From assembly GCA_026387265.1 (NCBI GenBank), contig JAPLLZ010000020.1:5413-69412 (forward strand): a stretch of 64,000 bases of DNA. The letters are read 5' to 3'. Origin of the DNA: Candidatus Omnitrophota bacterium. Lineage in GTDB: Bacteria; Omnitrophota; Gorgyraeia; Gygaellales; Profunditerraquicolaceae. Every line of letters starts with the position of its first letter. Position 1 is the stretch's first letter. The position numbers were made by a program, and so were the translations under genes. Of this stretch, positions 55,901-61,400 are shown one piece after another. Below the pieces are notes generated by a model that ran no database searches, was not told the origin of the DNA, and worked only from the letters and a program-made list of their open reading frames with translations.

Positions 55901-58459
55901 CATAATCAGGCTAAGCTTGGCGTAAACCGCGTACGCGCTCCGCCTGTTGGTATTAAGAATTTCATAGCTGCTTTAATCTTCGGCCTTTCCGCGTTAACTT
56001 TCCACAATGCATTAAATTTCAGTCAAATCAATTTAACCGTGCCGTCTATTGCTATTTCTATATTAGAAATAGCCGTGGCGGTTATTTTCATTAAAGGAGG
56101 TGTACCATGTGCCCTATCAAAATCGAAGATATCAGAATGGATCACATCGTTGATTACACGAAGAACTACTCTACCTTTGCAACAGCCCGCCAAAACAGTA
56201 ACAACCACCTTAGGATCTTTATGGTCAATGATTCCGGCAACGTTTATCTGCGCAATGGGCGCGGTGAAAGCTGGATGGAGATCCTGGGTAGCGCAGCCGA
56301 GAAAGTCCGGGATTGTATTGACCAAGCGCGCAGCTATGTTCCGGTCTACAAAGTTAACGCAGCTTACGGATACAACAACTAATTCCGGTGAAGACAAGTT
56401 TGTTTCTAACAAGGCGTCTACTCCTACCGTGGCAGGAAAGAGTACGCCGATTATTGCTGGCAAGGGTGTCCAGACTTCCCTCCAGAAGACGATCACTGGC
56501 ACCTTTGCCGCAATAAATAATAAGTTTAGCTCTTTAAAGCGGGCATTAGTTACCGCTTGCGTTATTGTAGTAATGTTGTTTGCCCTTACTGGTTGTGCTA
56601 CCAATAGTAATAATATTGTTAATGTTCAATATTCTGATACTGTCATGCAAGAGTATAGCGATAATTTGCAGGGTTGGGCTCAGGATCTAGCGTATACTAA
56701 AGTTGGCAAGACATTGAATTTTACTTCAGTTGATGCGCAAGAAAGAGTTATAGAAATTAATGATTATATTAATAACCTGTGGGATGAGATGTATAAGGCA
56801 GGAGAATTAGATGATTATTTGACTAAGAGAGGGGATTCTGCAGAAGCGGTTATCATAGGTAAAGGGTTATTGCTTATACAGCTTACTGATCCTCAGGTTT
56901 ATGAAATGCTTAAGGAAGAGAATGCTGCTTTTTATGTTAATCCGCAATTAGAAGGCAGCGGTGCGACCTACGGAACTAATTGGCTCGGAACGATGGGCCG
57001 GCCGATTGTCGAAGTACATGCTAAATATATTAACGATCCGTTTACCGTAGCGCGCATCTTAGACCATGAGTCAGTCCATGTAGAAGCCCTGCCGCAAAAC
57101 TTCTTCCAGGCAGTCGGTAAGTATAACGTGATTAAATTGTTGGTAGATATTGTTGCTAGTGTTCCTGTTGAAGAGACCAAGGCTTATGCCAGAGAGGCGG
57201 AGTTTGCAAGTAAATTTGGTATTATGCCGGAAAAGGGTAAAGAATTCTTTGATGAGATGGATTTAATGTTTGCTTATTCTGATGAGAAGCAAAGTTTCGT
57301 ATTAATGGGTATTGCTTATAACATGTGTGTTTATGCGCCTCTCTTTTTAATCGGGTTTTATCTTATCAGAAGAACAATCAGACGGGCGCACTCAGAATCT
57401 TATAATGCAATATATATCCCTAGTAGAAAAACCTACTATTATATTAATGAGGAAAATGAACAACTCTTTATGGATAGTGCCGATTATCTTAAGCGCCAGA
57501 ATGCCCGCGCTGTTGTTTTCTCCAAAAAGGTTTTATATGTTCCTAGTGAGGAAGTATATTACTTTATCAATGAGAGAAAGCTGGGATTCTTTATTAACAA
57601 TGCCAAATATTTTAAGAGCCAAGGATTTAATTTGCGTTATTTAGACGATCTGATAAGAAAGGCTGAAGAATACAATTGTGATCTTGATTGCGATGGCGTT
57701 GCTGTTCCGGCTTCTAATGGTACATTTGTAGTACGGGAATTAGAGAATCCTGAGTCGCATAATCTGCAGCCCATCGGTCAAATTATTGCTGCCTTACGTC
57801 ATCCTTCAGTAGCCGGTAGCTTCTTAAAGGTAGCCAGATTATCCTATAAAGTAGCCTGTTTCAAGCTTGCAGAACAGAATGGCATCAGAGGCGCTCCGGT
57901 AGTAAGACATATCCGCGCTTTCTTCTACGTATTAGCTAACTCTAAAACCGGCAGAAATGTTACTGCCGAATACATATCTTCCAAGCTTTCTGCTAAAGAT
58001 GCAACATTCCTCAATGCCCAATTAGATCTTCATGAAAAAGGTGAGACTGAAAGAGCGGGCCTAAAGGCTCAGGTAGAAGCGTTCAGAAAGAATAAGGATC
58101 AAGGTGAGGAATACTTAGCTTTTATCATTATCTCGACCCTTTCTGCTACAGCAGCTTTTATTGTATTCATGGTATTAAATTTAGGAGTCACTTTAAATAT
58201 TCATCCTGCTTTTGTAGCGGCAGCAGCAGCTATGGCTGTACCATTTCTTTTGTTTCCGGCTAAATTCCTTTTTAGTAATATAGCTACACTTATTTCTTCC
58301 AATATAGCTAATGCGCATAAAGCAAAACAAGTAAGGACGTCCTCATACATGAACACTGCTTTAGAAAAATCTTCATCTTTAACGGTAACTATACAGGTTC
58401 CGGTGTACAAAGAAACATTTGAACAAACAATCAAGCTTACTTTTGTGATGATGGCCTGA
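52967..58459 (+). CDS. Giant protein 2 (1830 aa)
   Basis: A GTG start overlaps the end of ORF1 by 17 nt. It contains an N/D/G low-complexity tract and three copies of an internal repeat. Several TM segments follow, then an internal lipoprotein-signal-like segment and an HExxH motif. C-terminal TM helices and the first beta-strand of a GT2 domain come last. One ~280 nt stretch (56100-56390) translates poorly in this frame. Confidence 0.6.
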   Translation: MGIADKSLGINEKNFNWMNGKNCFITIAPLAIRAALEAAKNKIEASGKLWTLRVAVQTYNDLVDEYNASHQDKLERLFVAKVAQSRIKELIDQEVSFEITENLGDSFHAILPFGYVENESSLSITAMNGNVADHRRTVNVADLDFSGTGVIVMVAESAKNLITKEESDAAEDGYRSTDDKPITGDTNVNTDTASKDTHNDNNDINNNNNNGGEGKGNGGNDGGNTGKDHANKANNVNNNDGKDGDSDLAGEKISQDLPETGKVAIEDAIVDSFNRITANNLSPPEAIFANLANTLRIVVNQLKEELSDLTRANTASLRNAIDVFNELIAILDNLANNPIVSLKYFLMLARREEEDIVTPLLKTLIGAIKDRGLNNLHGRYFRAARLIAHRYGLPYSSMVELANTFILLNETNDFINALKEEDFVRAELEARAKETEIASLATFAHNGGFVVMNNAAAYDRLNNVLNILNNSVGRYTSGVGVAVNVVKIKFGETRAGLNSIIGALSASVSGIFSRLGSLFVITPALAGQVESDETASTLLSSLTRASDELSQFPANLPTAKTVVNTVETAKSTNSQSITAENKTIASDILNNVLNILNNSVAKYVSNIKVTINAIKVGVTGAARVGLSSIANTLSSSLTNVSNKLSSSPISSLLTRLATVNESGIVNVGLSIVLAPAATVSLGIVAPIAVHLFGLVLGGVAALVTGFVLVAGLSKVINNSVSTHLAASTASLSASQDVDVNNADLTSATAKTATGTVETAKSINSQSVTVESKVTVSGILNNVLNILSNSVAKYVSNIKVTINAIKVGVTGAASPVAGSTTVPAASSTSLPASQAVNTNNANLTKLAAKVLNLVHSLIASIRNILNNLSSKSEIKGETSTKVQANILGNSISSLAPPVNGLIARFVKNAINQLINAIKGEENGHEKNNRNERGNSSNRYTVQNKTAPGNETGSGIRNAKFKEYINRKAGQLINWLRTILHNQAKLGVNRVRAPPVGIKNFIAALIFGLSALTFHNALNFSQINLTVPSIAISILEIAVAVIFIKGGVPCALSKSKISEWITSLITRRTTLPLQQPAKTVTTTLGSLWSMIPATFICAMGAVKAGWRSWVAQPRKSGIVLTKRAAMFRSTKLTQLTDTTTNSGEDKFVSNKASTPTVAGKSTPIIAGKGVQTSLQKTITGTFAAINNKFSSLKRALVTACVIVVMLFALTGCATNSNNIVNVQYSDTVMQEYSDNLQGWAQDLAYTKVGKTLNFTSVDAQERVIEINDYINNLWDEMYKAGELDDYLTKRGDSAEAVIIGKGLLLIQLTDPQVYEMLKEENAAFYVNPQLEGSGATYGTNWLGTMGRPIVEVHAKYINDPFTVARILDHESVHVEALPQNFFQAVGKYNVIKLLVDIVASVPVEETKAYAREAEFASKFGIMPEKGKEFFDEMDLMFAYSDEKQSFVLMGIAYNMCVYAPLFLIGFYLIRRTIRRAHSESYNAIYIPSRKTYYYINEENEQLFMDSADYLKRQNARAVVFSKKVLYVPSEEVYYFINERKLGFFINNAKYFKSQGFNLRYLDDLIRKAEEYNCDLDCDGVAVPASNGTFVVRELENPESHNLQPIGQIIAALRHPSVAGSFLKVARLSYKVACFKLAEQNGIRGAPVVRHIRAFFYVLANSKTGRNVTAEYISSKLSAKDATFLNAQLDLHEKGETERAGLKAQVEAFRKNKDQGEEYLAFIIISTLSATAAFIVFMVLNLGVTLNIHPAFVAAAAAMAVPFLLFPAKFLFSNIATLISSNIANAHKAKQVRTSSYMNTALEKSSSLTVTIQVPVYKETFEQTIKLTFVMMA

Positions 58460-61400: not shown

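What the first reader, a model, noticed from the sequence alone, without database searches (positions are those of the whole stretch)
57752..60316. ~350 bp direct repeats (~85% nt identity, mostly third-position differences) bracket the GT2-TM unit
Copy 1 is at 57752-58100 in the ORF2 frame (...NLQPIGQIIAALRHPSVAGSFLKVARLSYKVACFKLAEQNGIRGAP...LNAQLDLHEKGETERAGLKAQVEAF).
Copy 2 is at 59968-60316 in the ORF3 frame (...NLQPIGQIIGALRHPSVAGSFLKMFRLSYRIACFKLAEENGIRGSP...LNAQLDLHEAGKTERAGFKAQVKSF).

The differences are concentrated at synonymous positions, which suggests both copies are under purifying selection. The two ~120-aa modules flank the block of TM helices, GT2 domain and TM helices. The layout is [module][TM][GT2 start] | [GT2 rest][TM][module'].

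This looks like a duplication or insertion event that placed a polysaccharide-synthase unit inside a repeated module, or a domain that clamps the synthase on both sides.
Basis: seen in the sequence. Interest (0 to 1): 0.55.

Follow-up and report, generated by a model that had tools for sequence, protein, structure and literature searches.

The report
Duplicated unknown domain brackets glycan synthase
Two diverged copies of a small, previously undescribed helical protein domain sit on either side of a cellulose-synthase-like membrane enzyme inside a broken giant gene of an uncultured Omnitrophota bacterium. The repeat is real and selected, but it is an ordinary within-gene domain duplication and its function is unknown.

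Summary
The repeat is real. 57752-58102 and 59968-60312 share 82% nt identity (E=3e-81) and 79% aa identity. dN/dS is 0.18 (CI 0.09-0.35). Flanks are at chance.

Each copy encodes a ~115-aa all-helical domain (AF2 pLDDT 86.5) with no Pfam, PDB-sequence or Foldseek-PDB match. An exhaustive search of 1.84 billion proteins found only about 9 relatives. Every named one is a fragment of a large multi-TM Candidatus Omnitrophota protein. There the domain follows unrelated enzymes (an RmlB-like epimerase, a nuclease/phosphatase-like domain, HExxH and GGDEF regions) and usually precedes TM helices. It is therefore not synthase-specific.

The two window copies are each other's closest relatives. They bracket exactly one equivalent of a standalone BcsA/HAS-like GT2 synthase (TM hairpin, GT2, TM bundle). 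None of the 23 synthase homologs carries the module.

The GT2 domain is damaged. About 20 aa are missing between PVYKE and CDDG, and there is a -1 frameshift. ORF1, ORF2 and ORF3 look like one Archaeovorin-type giant gene in pieces, behind a c-di-GMP riboswitch.

The SecM/RAPP-like core (GIRGAP/GIRGSP) fails the published motif requirements. Best reading: an intragenic duplication of a cytoplasmic juxtamembrane domain of unknown biochemistry.

The parts
57752..58102 (+). Module copy 1 (ORF2 aa 1596-1712): ~115-aa all-helical domain. Its RGAP core is at 57887-57898.
   Evidence: repeat; family, E=3.5e-76 to its own profile; AF2 pLDDT 86.5, six helices; no Pfam, PDB-sequence or Foldseek-PDB match
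58109..58294 (+). Two-helix TM hairpin that begins the synthase unit (ORF2 aa 1715-1776). It is homologous to the N-terminal TM hairpin of standalone synthases such as P0001.
   Evidence: Kyte-Doolittle scan; blastp alignment to P0001/P0002
58397..58414 (+). First GT2 motif, VPVYKE (strand beta-1), the last recognisable synthase element in the ORF2 frame.
58415..58459 (+). Lesion in the GT2 domain. At most 10 aa lie between PVYKE and CDDG, against 28-32 in homologs. A -1 frame change is needed within 58423-58459, with a T4 run at 58441-58444. The ORF2 stop TGA at 58457-58459 overlaps the ATG at 58459.
   Evidence: sequence and frames; spacing in 13 homologs; 18- and 22-aa alignment gaps at this point
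58444..59478 (+). Rest of the GT2 catalytic domain in the ORF3 frame: CDDG 58444-58455, LLLDKDS 58819-58839, VGHN 59035-59052, VSEDL 59101-59115, QMTKY (QxxRW-like) 59224-59247.
   Evidence: Pfam Glyco_trans_2_3, E=3.5e-24, 86 bits against cut-off 27; AF2 pLDDT 85-95 over aa 10-320; Foldseek top hits BcsA, hyaluronan synthase, CesA and chitin synthase; motif coordinates
59356..59898 (+). C-terminal TM bundle of the synthase unit (ORF3 aa 312-492): 4-5 hydrophobic helices.
59968..60312 (+). Module copy 2 (ORF3-frame aa 516-630). Its RGSP core is at 60103-60114. It has a 1-aa deletion and has lost the conserved V-V-R-H that follows the core.
   Evidence: (profile E=2.1e-51)
60826..60906 (+). Internal signal-anchor / lipoprotein-like signal (…GILTGLIIAIIFLGGIFQAGC|SYKP), about 190 aa after module 2.
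   Evidence: hydropathy and sequence; inference only
60934..62067 (+). (alpha/alpha)6-like glycoside-hydrolase-like domain (ORF3 aa 838-1215). It is homologous to ~650-aa Omnitrophota PilZ-TM-coiled-coil-GH76-like proteins.
   Evidence: 35-38% identity, E to 1e-71; only sub-threshold Pfam hits: GH88 for the window segment, GH76 for P0035
41176..64000 (+). The host gene. ORF1 (41176-52983, 3935 aa), ORF2 (52967-58459, 1830 aa; = MCX5693773.1) and ORF3 (58423 to beyond 64000, at least 1859 aa) appear to be one Omnitrophota giant gene interrupted by two frame changes.
   Evidence: C39 peptidase near the N-terminus; heptad repeat continues across the ORF1/ORF2 frame change; identity and taxonomy

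Best explanation
The two repeats are paralogous copies of one self-contained ~115-aa helical protein domain. No domain or structure library searched here contains it, and the relatives found are confined to large or giant membrane proteins of Candidatus Omnitrophota.

The window's ORF1, ORF2 and ORF3 form one Archaeovorin-type giant gene. Within it, a unit equivalent to a free-standing BcsA/hyaluronan-synthase-like GT2 enzyme (TM hairpin, GT-A domain, TM bundle) lies between the two copies. The copies arose by intragenic duplication, most simply when the synthase unit was incorporated next to a pre-existing module. Since then they have diverged to dS of about 0.64 while both stayed under purifying selection.

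By topology, both copies should lie on the cytoplasmic face next to the GT domain. Module 1 is separated from the GT domain by two TM helices. Module 2 occupies the position of the positively charged cytoplasmic tail of the standalone homologs, which is where BcsA carries its PilZ domain.

Inferred mechanism, not shown: the module is a cytoplasmic juxtamembrane adaptor or regulatory domain. It would mark the transition from a cytoplasmic enzyme unit to a membrane-spanning or exported segment. Its invariant polar cluster (near-invariant H15; invariant Q22, R58, H106, E107, E112) suggests that it binds a metal or small ligand, or a partner.

In this genome the synthase itself looks inactivated, by a deletion of about 20 aa plus a -1 frameshift between the PVYKE and CDDG motifs.
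For: Repeat and selection.

Real domain family: a profile search of 1.84e9 representatives returned 10 hits. One was ORF2 itself, eight were clear relatives (E from 1e-34 to 2e-5), and one was marginal (P0033, E=1.2e-4). All named members are Ca. Omnitrophota MAG proteins.

Folded domain: AF2 pLDDT 86.5, pTM 0.79, six helices.

Invariant residues: Q22, F36, R58, P61, I66, A68, A74, H106, E107, E112.

Self-contained and shuffled: in all-vs-all blastp, homology between members is limited to the module. Members place it after an RmlB-like epimerase, after a nuclease/phosphatase-like domain read from the sequence, after HExxH regions, or in a protein carrying GGDEF far upstream. In 7 of 11 cases a TM helix follows within 5-45 aa.

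Only two copies exist in the window, and none in the locus of the closest synthase homolog. The two copies are each other's closest relatives.

The modules bracket exactly the span homologous to standalone synthases. The GT2 identity rests, and the GT2 lesion.

Giant-gene context: C39 peptidase near the ORF1 N-terminus, a Tad/secretin cluster upstream, and agreement with West-Roberts et al. 2023 (bioRxiv 10.1101/2023.11.21.568195) and bioRxiv 10.64898/2026.06.07.730766. The latter reports repeated domains in 65% of long Omnitrophota proteins, with their nucleotide similarity dissolved by synonymous and tolerated nonsynonymous change.
Against: The function is inferred from position and conservation only. 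No ligand, metal or partner was tested, and I had no access to the model coordinates to check whether the invariant residues cluster.

Topology rests on hydropathy and on homology to the tails of standalone synthases. Five hydrophobic segments follow the GT domain, so module 2 could be periplasmic if all five span the membrane.

The module is not a general unit boundary. The window's at least 7,600 aa of giant gene contain other unit boundaries, such as the internal lipoboxes, that have no module.

Evidence that an ancestor lacked the GT2 unit is weak. P0026 ends 89 aa after its module, and its tail matches the region after module 2 only at z=2.1, with 21 of 500 shuffles scoring as high.

GC3 of the GT2 unit (0.28-0.32) is close to that of the flanks (0.32-0.34), so composition gives no sign of recent import.

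Copy 2 has lost several family-conserved residues and may be decaying together with the broken synthase.
Confidence: 0.6

Rival explanations
1. The module is a co-translational pause element. Its invariant R-x-x-P core (GIRGAP/GIRGSP here, RAPP in two relatives) would stall the ribosome as SecM (GIRAGP) and the RAPP arrest peptides do. This would synchronise translation of the giant protein with membrane insertion of neighbouring TM segments.
For: R58 and P61 are invariant in all 10 family sequences, with the same R-x-x-P spacing as SecM and RAPP. 'QNGIRGAP' resembles SecM 'AQGIRAGP'. P0026 and P0031 carry true RAPP at this position. Further RAPP/RAGP tetrapeptides occur elsewhere in these proteins: ORF2 aa 990, conserved in P0026; also P0028, P0031 and P0025. 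[quoted passage not shown] In about half of the members the first module helix is TM-like and lies roughly 25-30 aa upstream of the core.
Against: Saturation mutagenesis of ApcA, ApdA and ApdP shows that the third position tolerates only Pro, or partly Gly. RGAP, RGSP and RGQP therefore fall outside the arrest-competent set (PMC12992588, section 7). The segment is part of a confidently predicted folded helical bundle, with P61 at a helix N-terminus. That explains the conservation structurally. Known arrest peptides sit near the C-terminus of small ORFs upstream of the regulated gene, which is not the case here. In the window copies the first helix is not hydrophobic, and the nearest upstream TM of copy 1 is about 130 aa away.
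Confidence: 0.06
2. The module is a polyprotein junction or processing element. It would mark where the giant protein is cut into gene-sized products, either by self-cleavage using the His/Glu residues or by the N-terminal C39 peptidase.
For: The modules bracket exactly one gene-equivalent. In relatives they directly follow complete enzyme domains. The invariant H...HExxxxE pattern could be catalytic. The copy 1 sequence FKLAEQNGIRGA has E at -8, I at -4 and G-A at -2/-1, as in double-glycine leaders (my reading of the sequence). West-Roberts et al. suggest that C39/S8 domains may cleave giant proteins.
Against: Gly at -2, which C39 cleavage requires, is absent in the RAPP variants. A Pro at P1' disfavours most proteases. 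There is no similarity to any peptidase in Pfam or PDB. Only two modules occur in at least 7,600 aa, although there are several other unit boundaries. No proteomic evidence exists.
Confidence: 0.1
3. The two copies are old paralogs kept similar by gene conversion, rather than products of a relatively recent duplication tied to acquisition of the synthase.
For: The similarity ends sharply at the domain boundaries, as expected if conversion tracts are limited to the homologous segment.
Against: Divergence is uniform (77-93% per 30 nt), and the longest identical run is 17 nt, so there are no conversion-like tracts. dS of 0.64 means no recent homogenisation.
Confidence: 0.12
4. The arrangement is an assembly artefact: strain variants of a single module were assembled as two copies, and the frame breaks are assembly or sequencing errors.
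For: The source is a MAG contig. There are two frame changes in one gene, one of them next to a perfect 21-nt tandem repeat. No second assembly was available.
Against: The copies have different, meaningful flanks, and the interval between them is collinear with complete standalone synthases. The paralog-like dN/dS of 0.18, the 25 aa changes and the in-frame indel are not allelic noise. The GT2 lesion is a loss of about 55-65 nt, not a homopolymer miscall.
Confidence: 0.04

Closest known systems
Omnitrophota giant proteins of the 'Archaeovorin' / multi-enzyme class (West-Roberts et al. 2023, bioRxiv 10.1101/2023.11.21.568195; bioRxiv 10.64898/2026.06.07.730766)
   Same: Same taxon. A C39 peptidase lies near the N-terminus behind a signal/TM segment. 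There are many TM helices. Glycosyltransferase, glycoside-hydrolase-like and HExxH regions are embedded in one reading frame. A secretin/Tad (T2SS-like) cluster lies next door. Internal domain repeats have drifted apart at the nucleotide level.
   Different: Here the gene is in at least three pieces: 3935 aa, 1830 aa and at least 1859 aa. Less than 8 kaa of it is visible in the window. The repeated unit is not a Pfam domain and does not appear in the parts of those papers I read.
Membrane-embedded processive GT2 synthases (BcsA, hyaluronan synthase, CesA, chitin synthase)
   Same: A GT-A domain with DDG, DxD (DKD), ED and a Q-x-x-(K/R)-(Y/W) motif lies between an N-terminal TM hairpin and a C-terminal TM bundle. 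BcsA, HAS, CesA and chitin synthases are the top Foldseek hits. A cytosolic domain follows the last TM at the position where BcsA has PilZ.
   Different: The unit is embedded in a giant ORF. The flanking domains are all-helical modules, not a PilZ beta-barrel. About 20 aa are missing between PVYKE and DDG (by homolog alignment, the alpha-1/beta-2 region), and there is a frameshift, so the enzyme is probably inactive. c-di-GMP input may instead come from the riboswitch in the mRNA leader.
SecM / RAPP-type ribosome arrest peptides (PMC10951233, PMC10951299, PMC12992588)
   Same: An invariant Arg and Pro with R-x-x-P spacing, and 'GIR' as in SecM. Two relatives carry true RAPP.
   Different: The window cores are RGAP and RGSP, and position 3 is outside the tolerated set. 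The motif lies inside a folded domain of a giant protein, not at the end of a small leader ORF.
Standalone Omnitrophota PilZ-TM-GH76-like proteins (P0034-P0046)
   Same: They are homologous (35-38% identity) to the domain that follows module 2 and the internal signal in ORF3. This shows that the giant gene strings together units that exist elsewhere as separate genes.
   Different: They carry no module and no GT2. PilZ is absent from the window protein.

Membership tests
Processive membrane GT2 synthase (Pfam Glyco_trans_2_3; BcsA/HAS-like) | Significant match to the family profile | tested here: met
   PF13632, E=3.5e-24, 86.2 bits against cut-off 27, ORF3 aa 133-352
Processive membrane GT2 synthase (Pfam Glyco_trans_2_3; BcsA/HAS-like) | GT-A fold flanked by TM helices, resembling solved synthases | tested here: met
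   AF2 pLDDT 85-95 for aa 10-320. Foldseek against PDB: BcsA 1.5e-9, Cv-HAS 1.3e-6, CesA, chitin synthases. TM segments on both sides.
Processive membrane GT2 synthase (Pfam Glyco_trans_2_3; BcsA/HAS-like) | Catalytic motifs D, DxD, ED and Q(Q/R)xRW | tested here: inconclusive
   CDDG, LLLDKDS and VSEDL are present. The last motif reads QMTKY, against (R/H/F)(A/R)RY in the two closest homologs. DDG lies upstream of the first in-frame Met of ORF3.
Processive membrane GT2 synthase (Pfam Glyco_trans_2_3; BcsA/HAS-like) | Intact, continuous catalytic domain | tested here: not met
   At most 10 aa between PVYKE and CDDG, against 28-32 in 13 homologs, plus a -1 frame change
RAPP-like ribosome arrest peptide | C-terminal core RAPP, RGPP, RAGP or RAPG (third position Pro, or Gly) | tested here: not met
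   The window cores are RGAP and RGSP. Mutagenesis rules are in PMC12992588, section 7.
RAPP-like ribosome arrest peptide | Motif near the C-terminus of a small secretory or membrane ORF upstream of the regulated gene | tested here: not met
   The motif is internal to proteins of 1830 aa and at least 1859 aa, inside a predicted helical bundle
RAPP-like ribosome arrest peptide | Demonstrated elongation arrest | not testable with these tools
   Needs toeprinting or PURE-system translation
Omnitrophota giant (Archaeovorin-type) protein | Encoded in Candidatus Omnitrophota | tested here: met
   ORF2 = MCX5693773.1, MAG Candidatus Omnitrophica bacterium, contig of 87,977 bp
Omnitrophota giant (Archaeovorin-type) protein | N-terminal C39 peptidase near a signal/TM segment, numerous TM helices, GT/GH/peptidase content | tested here: met
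   Peptidase_C39, 23.2 bits against cut-off 22, at ORF1 aa 175-253, behind a TM at aa 21-47. GT2. GH-like domain. HExxH.
Omnitrophota giant (Archaeovorin-type) protein | SecA DEAD-like helicase domain | tested here: inconclusive
   Only a sub-threshold ResIII helicase hit: 20.2 bits against cut-off 22.5, at ORF1 aa ~2100-2225
Omnitrophota giant (Archaeovorin-type) protein | Single ORF of more than 30,000 aa | tested here: not met
   Three frames of 3935, 1830 and at least 1859 aa. The window ends inside ORF3.
C39 double-glycine leader / cleavage site | Invariant Gly at -2 and Gly/Ala/Ser at -1 | tested here: not met
   The family alignment has RAPP and RGQP variants at this position

The most novel reading that the evidence does not exclude
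The module could be a dedicated boundary element of Omnitrophota giant polyproteins. In that reading, the ~115-aa cassette sits at the seams between gene-equivalent units and governs how the giant chain is handled there. It would act either by pausing the ribosome at its invariant R-x-x-P core (a folded-domain relative of SecM/RAPP arrest sequences) or by directing cleavage, so that the synthase unit between the two copies is made, inserted or released as a discrete product.
Probability: 0.1. Interest if true: 0.75.

Novelty: new member of a known kind. Interest (0 to 1): 0.33.

Why it matters
Most of the sequence of Omnitrophota giant proteins is unannotated. This module is a small, confidently folding, strongly conserved piece of that unannotated sequence. 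It has a clear positional habit: it follows a cytoplasmic enzyme unit and usually precedes TM helices. An HMM built from the ten sequences aligned here could be used to segment giant ORFs into units.

If the module turns out to control processing, pausing or regulation at unit boundaries, it would help explain how bacteria make and use proteins of tens of thousands of residues.

As it stands, the finding documents a routine evolutionary event, namely domain duplication and incorporation of a gene-sized synthase unit. The synthase at its centre appears to be broken.

Tried and rejected

2. Gathering more relatives mostly failed. The search for homologous proteins with the 10-sequence alignment found nothing. 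Two metagenome scans and one viral scan found nothing. The first genome scan found nothing. The second found two Omnitrophota contigs.

3. The arrest-peptide idea was pursued through the literature and largely rejected on the position-3 rule.

4. The C39 double-glycine cleavage site was rejected, because Gly at -2 is not conserved.

5. HEPN (Rx4-6H), MshEN, GIL and I-site c-di-GMP motifs were considered by eye and rejected. The residues are not conserved or the spacing is wrong.

6. A transposon-like nature of the module was rejected: there are no terminal inverted repeats.

7. Foreign origin of the GT2 unit by composition was rejected: its GC3 is similar to that of the flanks.

8. The clamp hypothesis was tested with AF2 on ORF3 1-640 and was uninformative. 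The module had pLDDT of about 30 without alignment depth.

9. No independent assembly of the locus is on record.

10. Programmed -1 frameshifting was considered. A single-tRNA slip on U_UUU_G at 58441-58444 would restore ...KLTFCDDG..., but there is no canonical heptamer, and the ~20-aa deletion would remain.

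
Full report
**1. Observation**

A self-comparison of 55-63 kb gives a single long off-diagonal. It consists of two collinear blocks, 57756-57906 / 59972-60122 and 57910-58095 / 60123-60308. Each block is 82% identical, and the spacings are 2216 and 2213 nt. blastn with the low-complexity filter on aligns 342 nt at 82% identity, E=3e-81.

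Copy 1 is read in the frame of ORF2 (52967-58459, 1830 aa). Copy 2 is read in a different frame, which is open from 58423 to the end of the window. The encoded peptides are 92/117 identical, E=8e-48.

A codon alignment has 62 differences, distributed 17/9/36 over the three codon positions. dN is 0.115, dS is 0.64, and dN/dS is 0.18, with a bootstrap 95% CI of 0.09-0.35. Identity is even along the repeat, the longest identical run is 17 nt, and similarity stops at the edges of the encoded domain. '85%' and 'mostly third-position' are mild overstatements.

**2. What lies between the copies**

ORF2 ends ...SSLTVTIQVPVYKETFEQTIKLTFVMMA*. The other frame continues ...QAYFCDDGLMYFTANEN.... The ORF3 frame carries a Pfam Glyco_trans_2_3 domain, E=3.5e-24. 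Its motifs are CDDG, LLLDKDS, VGHN, VSEDL and QMTKY.

An AF2 model built with 23 homologs gives a confident GT-A domain. Its best Foldseek matches are BcsA, Chlorella-virus and Xenopus hyaluronan synthases, plant CesAs and chitin synthases.

Hydropathy shows a two-helix hairpin immediately after module 1, and four to five helices between the GT domain and module 2.

blastp against free-standing homologs (P0001 at 35% identity, P0002 at 30%) covers unit residues 138/172 to 758. Module 1 ends at residue 152 and module 2 begins at residue 775. The two modules therefore bracket exactly one gene-equivalent of a standalone synthase. None of the 23 homologs has the module, and the locus of the closest homolog has none either.

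**3. The synthase is damaged**

Thirteen homologs have 28-32 residues between IPxYxE and (S/C)DDG. The window has at most 10, and the frame changes by -1 in the same 37 nt. The alignments show 18- and 22-residue gaps exactly there.

This is a loss of 3n+1 nucleotides, about 55-65 nt. By position, the lost residues form the alpha-1/beta-2 part of the GT-A fold.

The ORF2 stop overlaps an ATG (TGATG, at 58457-58461). However, that Met lies after DDG, so an independently translated ORF3 would lack the first UDP-binding aspartates. I read this as a recent inactivation, or less likely an assembly defect. It cannot be decided without reads.

**4. The host gene**

ORF1 (41176-52983, 3935 aa) starts with a TM helix and a C39 peptidase domain. 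It ends in a perfect 21-nt tandem repeat, 3.8 copies at 52886-52965, which encodes SEKAIGV heptads. The same heptad pattern continues in the ORF2 frame as VGIADKS-LGINEKN. ORF1 and ORF2 therefore look like one reading frame with a +1 change. An AGGAG-6nt-GTG just before ORF2 means that independent initiation cannot be excluded.

ORF2 is MCX5693773.1, from a Candidatus Omnitrophica MAG, on an 88-kb contig.

Upstream lie a glycan and radical-SAM operon and a Tad/secretin cluster. This matches published descriptions of Omnitrophota giant genes: an N-terminal C39 domain, many TM helices, GT/GH/peptidase content and neighbouring T2SS-like genes (West-Roberts et al. 2023).

A 2026 preprint reports that 65% of long Omnitrophota proteins repeat a domain, and that the nucleotide similarity between repeats is eroded by synonymous and tolerated nonsynonymous change. 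That is what is seen here.

**5. The module itself**

It has no Pfam hit at E up to 10, no PDB sequence hit with a 10-sequence profile, and no Foldseek-PDB hit better than E=2.

An exhaustive HMMER search of 1.84 billion cluster representatives found ten proteins. These were ORF2 itself, eight clear relatives (E from 1e-34 to 2e-5) and one marginal hit. Two further loci came from GTDB genomes, and one of them is the same protein as P0027. Every named member is a partial protein from a Ca. Omnitrophota MAG, and each fills its short contig as one open frame.

The family alignment has invariant Q22, F36, R58, P61, I66, A68, A74, H106, E107 and E112. H15, Y44, L51, Q102 and Q119 are nearly invariant.

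AF2 on this alignment gives pLDDT 86.5 and pTM 0.79, with six helices. The R-x-x-P core lies in the loop between helices 2 and 3, and the Pro starts helix 3.

All-vs-all blastp shows that homology between members is confined to the module. The exception is P0026, which is also collinear with ORF2 aa 778-1120.

What surrounds the module differs from member to member:
- an RmlB-like epimerase, with an aldose epimerase further on (P0032);
- a nuclease/phosphatase-like domain, read from the sequence only (L005);
- HExxH regions directly upstream, with a GGDEF domain far upstream (P0028);
- an HExxH region upstream (P0030), as in ORF2 itself.

In 7 of 11 cases a TM helix follows within 5-45 residues. 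The module is therefore an independent, shuffled, probably cytoplasmic juxtamembrane domain. It is not a synthase accessory.

**6. Origin of the pair**

The window copies are 74-79% identical to each other and at most 57% identical to any other member. The duplication therefore happened within this lineage. Copy 2 has lost several family-conserved residues (A30G, R74S, F80S, L136F in alignment-column numbering), including the VVRH that follows the core.

P0026 resembles ORF2 upstream of its module and in the module itself. After the module it continues with soluble sequence instead of TM-GT2. That tail matches the region after module 2 only weakly, at z=2.1 with 21 of 500 shuffles scoring as high.

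This fits the incorporation of a synthase unit next to a pre-existing module, with the module being duplicated in the process. The evidence is thin. The GT2 unit has no compositional signature, the module has no terminal inverted repeats, and there are no conversion tracts.

**7. Function**

Topology by the positive-inside rule and by homology places both modules in the cytoplasm with the GT domain. Module 2 takes the place of the Arg-rich tail of the standalone homologs, which is also the place of PilZ in BcsA. This step is inferred.

My best guess is an adaptor or regulatory domain with a His/Glu/Arg site that binds a metal, a ligand or a partner. This is not shown.

I followed one striking lead. 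The core, QNGIRGAP, resembles the SecM arrest motif GIRAGP, and two relatives have RAPP at that position. Extra RAPP/RAGP tetrapeptides also occur in these proteins, although such motifs are among the most avoided in bacteria (PMC12992588). However, saturation mutagenesis shows that the third position must be Pro, or partly Gly. The segment is also part of a folded bundle. For the window copies, the arrest reading fails its defining test.

A processing-site reading (C39 or self-cleavage) also lacks support. Gly at -2 is not conserved, there is no peptidase similarity, and only two modules occur in at least 7.6 kaa.

**8. Verdict**

The repeat is real, coding and selected. It is best explained as an intragenic duplication of an undescribed, Omnitrophota-restricted domain that flanks an embedded and now damaged BcsA-like synthase unit in a fragmented giant gene.

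It is a new member of a known kind of feature, namely domain repeats in giant multi-enzyme proteins. The domain family itself is new to the libraries searched and would be useful for parsing these proteins. Its biochemical role remains open.

Noticed in passing
window 40882-41176: A complete riboswitch leader lies in front of the giant gene. It has a near-consensus sigma-70 promoter (TTGACA-17-TATATT, with TG) at 40882-40910. A full-length c-di-GMP-I-GGC aptamer (RF03167, 62.5 bits against gathering score 59, E=2e-12) follows at 40919-41007. A terminator-like hairpin with a T-run is at 41015-41033. The ORF1 ATG is at 41176. This suggests c-di-GMP control of an Omnitrophota giant gene that contains a BcsA-like synthase but no PilZ domain.
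   Followed up: partly
window 52886-52983: A perfect 21-nt tandem repeat (3.8 copies, encoding SEKAIGV heptads) sits at the end of ORF1. The heptad pattern continues in the ORF2 frame, so ORF1 and ORF2 look like one gene with a +1 frame change. Together with the -1 change at about 58441, the net shift is zero. An AGGAG-6nt-GTG also precedes ORF2.
   Followed up: partly
window 55934-55945 (ORF2 aa 990-993) and 36299-36310 (ORF 35147-36763): True RAPP tetrapeptides occur in real ORFs. Published work describes this motif as ribosome-stalling and strongly avoided in bacteria. The ORF2 instance sits 0-5 aa before a TM hairpin and is conserved in P0026 (aa 255). Further RAPP/RAGP instances occur in P0028, P0031 and P0025.
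   Followed up: partly
window 56585-56596 (ORF2 aa ~1187-1210) and 60826-60906 (ORF3 aa 802-828): Internal lipoprotein-type signal sequences lie deep inside the giant reading frames: ...KRALVTACVIVVMLFALTGC|ATN and ...KGILTGLIIAIIFLGGIFQAGC|SYK. A similar one follows the module in P0030. They hint that segments may be exported and cleaved or lipidated internally.
   Followed up: no
window 60934-62067 (ORF3 aa 838-1215): A domain homologous (35-38% identity) to ~650-aa Omnitrophota proteins built as PilZ, TM, coiled coil and a GH76/GH88-like (alpha/alpha)6 domain. It pairs a glycan-hydrolase-like unit with the synthase unit, as BcsZ is paired with BcsA.
   Followed up: partly
window 62416-62625 and 55139-55509: Further internal repeats in the giant gene. 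An 84-nt repeat at 79% identity encodes GDWV..W.YYG.TDPTGPAP twice in ORF3. A 77-nt repeat at 74% identity in ORF2 lies within a ~100-aa unit (…ILNNVLNILNNSVAKYVSNIKVTINAIKVGVTGAA…) that occurs several times.
   Followed up: no
window 57065-57079 (ORF2 aa 1367-1371): An HExxH motif (LDHESVHVEA) lies in a predicted exported segment between the internal lipobox and the next TM helix. Similar HExxH segments lie upstream of the module in P0028 and P0030. There is no Pfam match.
   Followed up: no
window 1-16000 and 23000-28700: The upstream context has two parts. The first is a glycan-modification operon: radical SAM, B12-radical SAM, GT2, NTP-transferase-GT2, methyltransferases, YdjC and DUF2079. 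The second is a Tad-type pilus/secretin cluster: RcpC, a secretin fused to TonB_C, and a fused CpaE-CpaF ATPase. There is also a tRNA at 19969-20043.
   Followed up: partly
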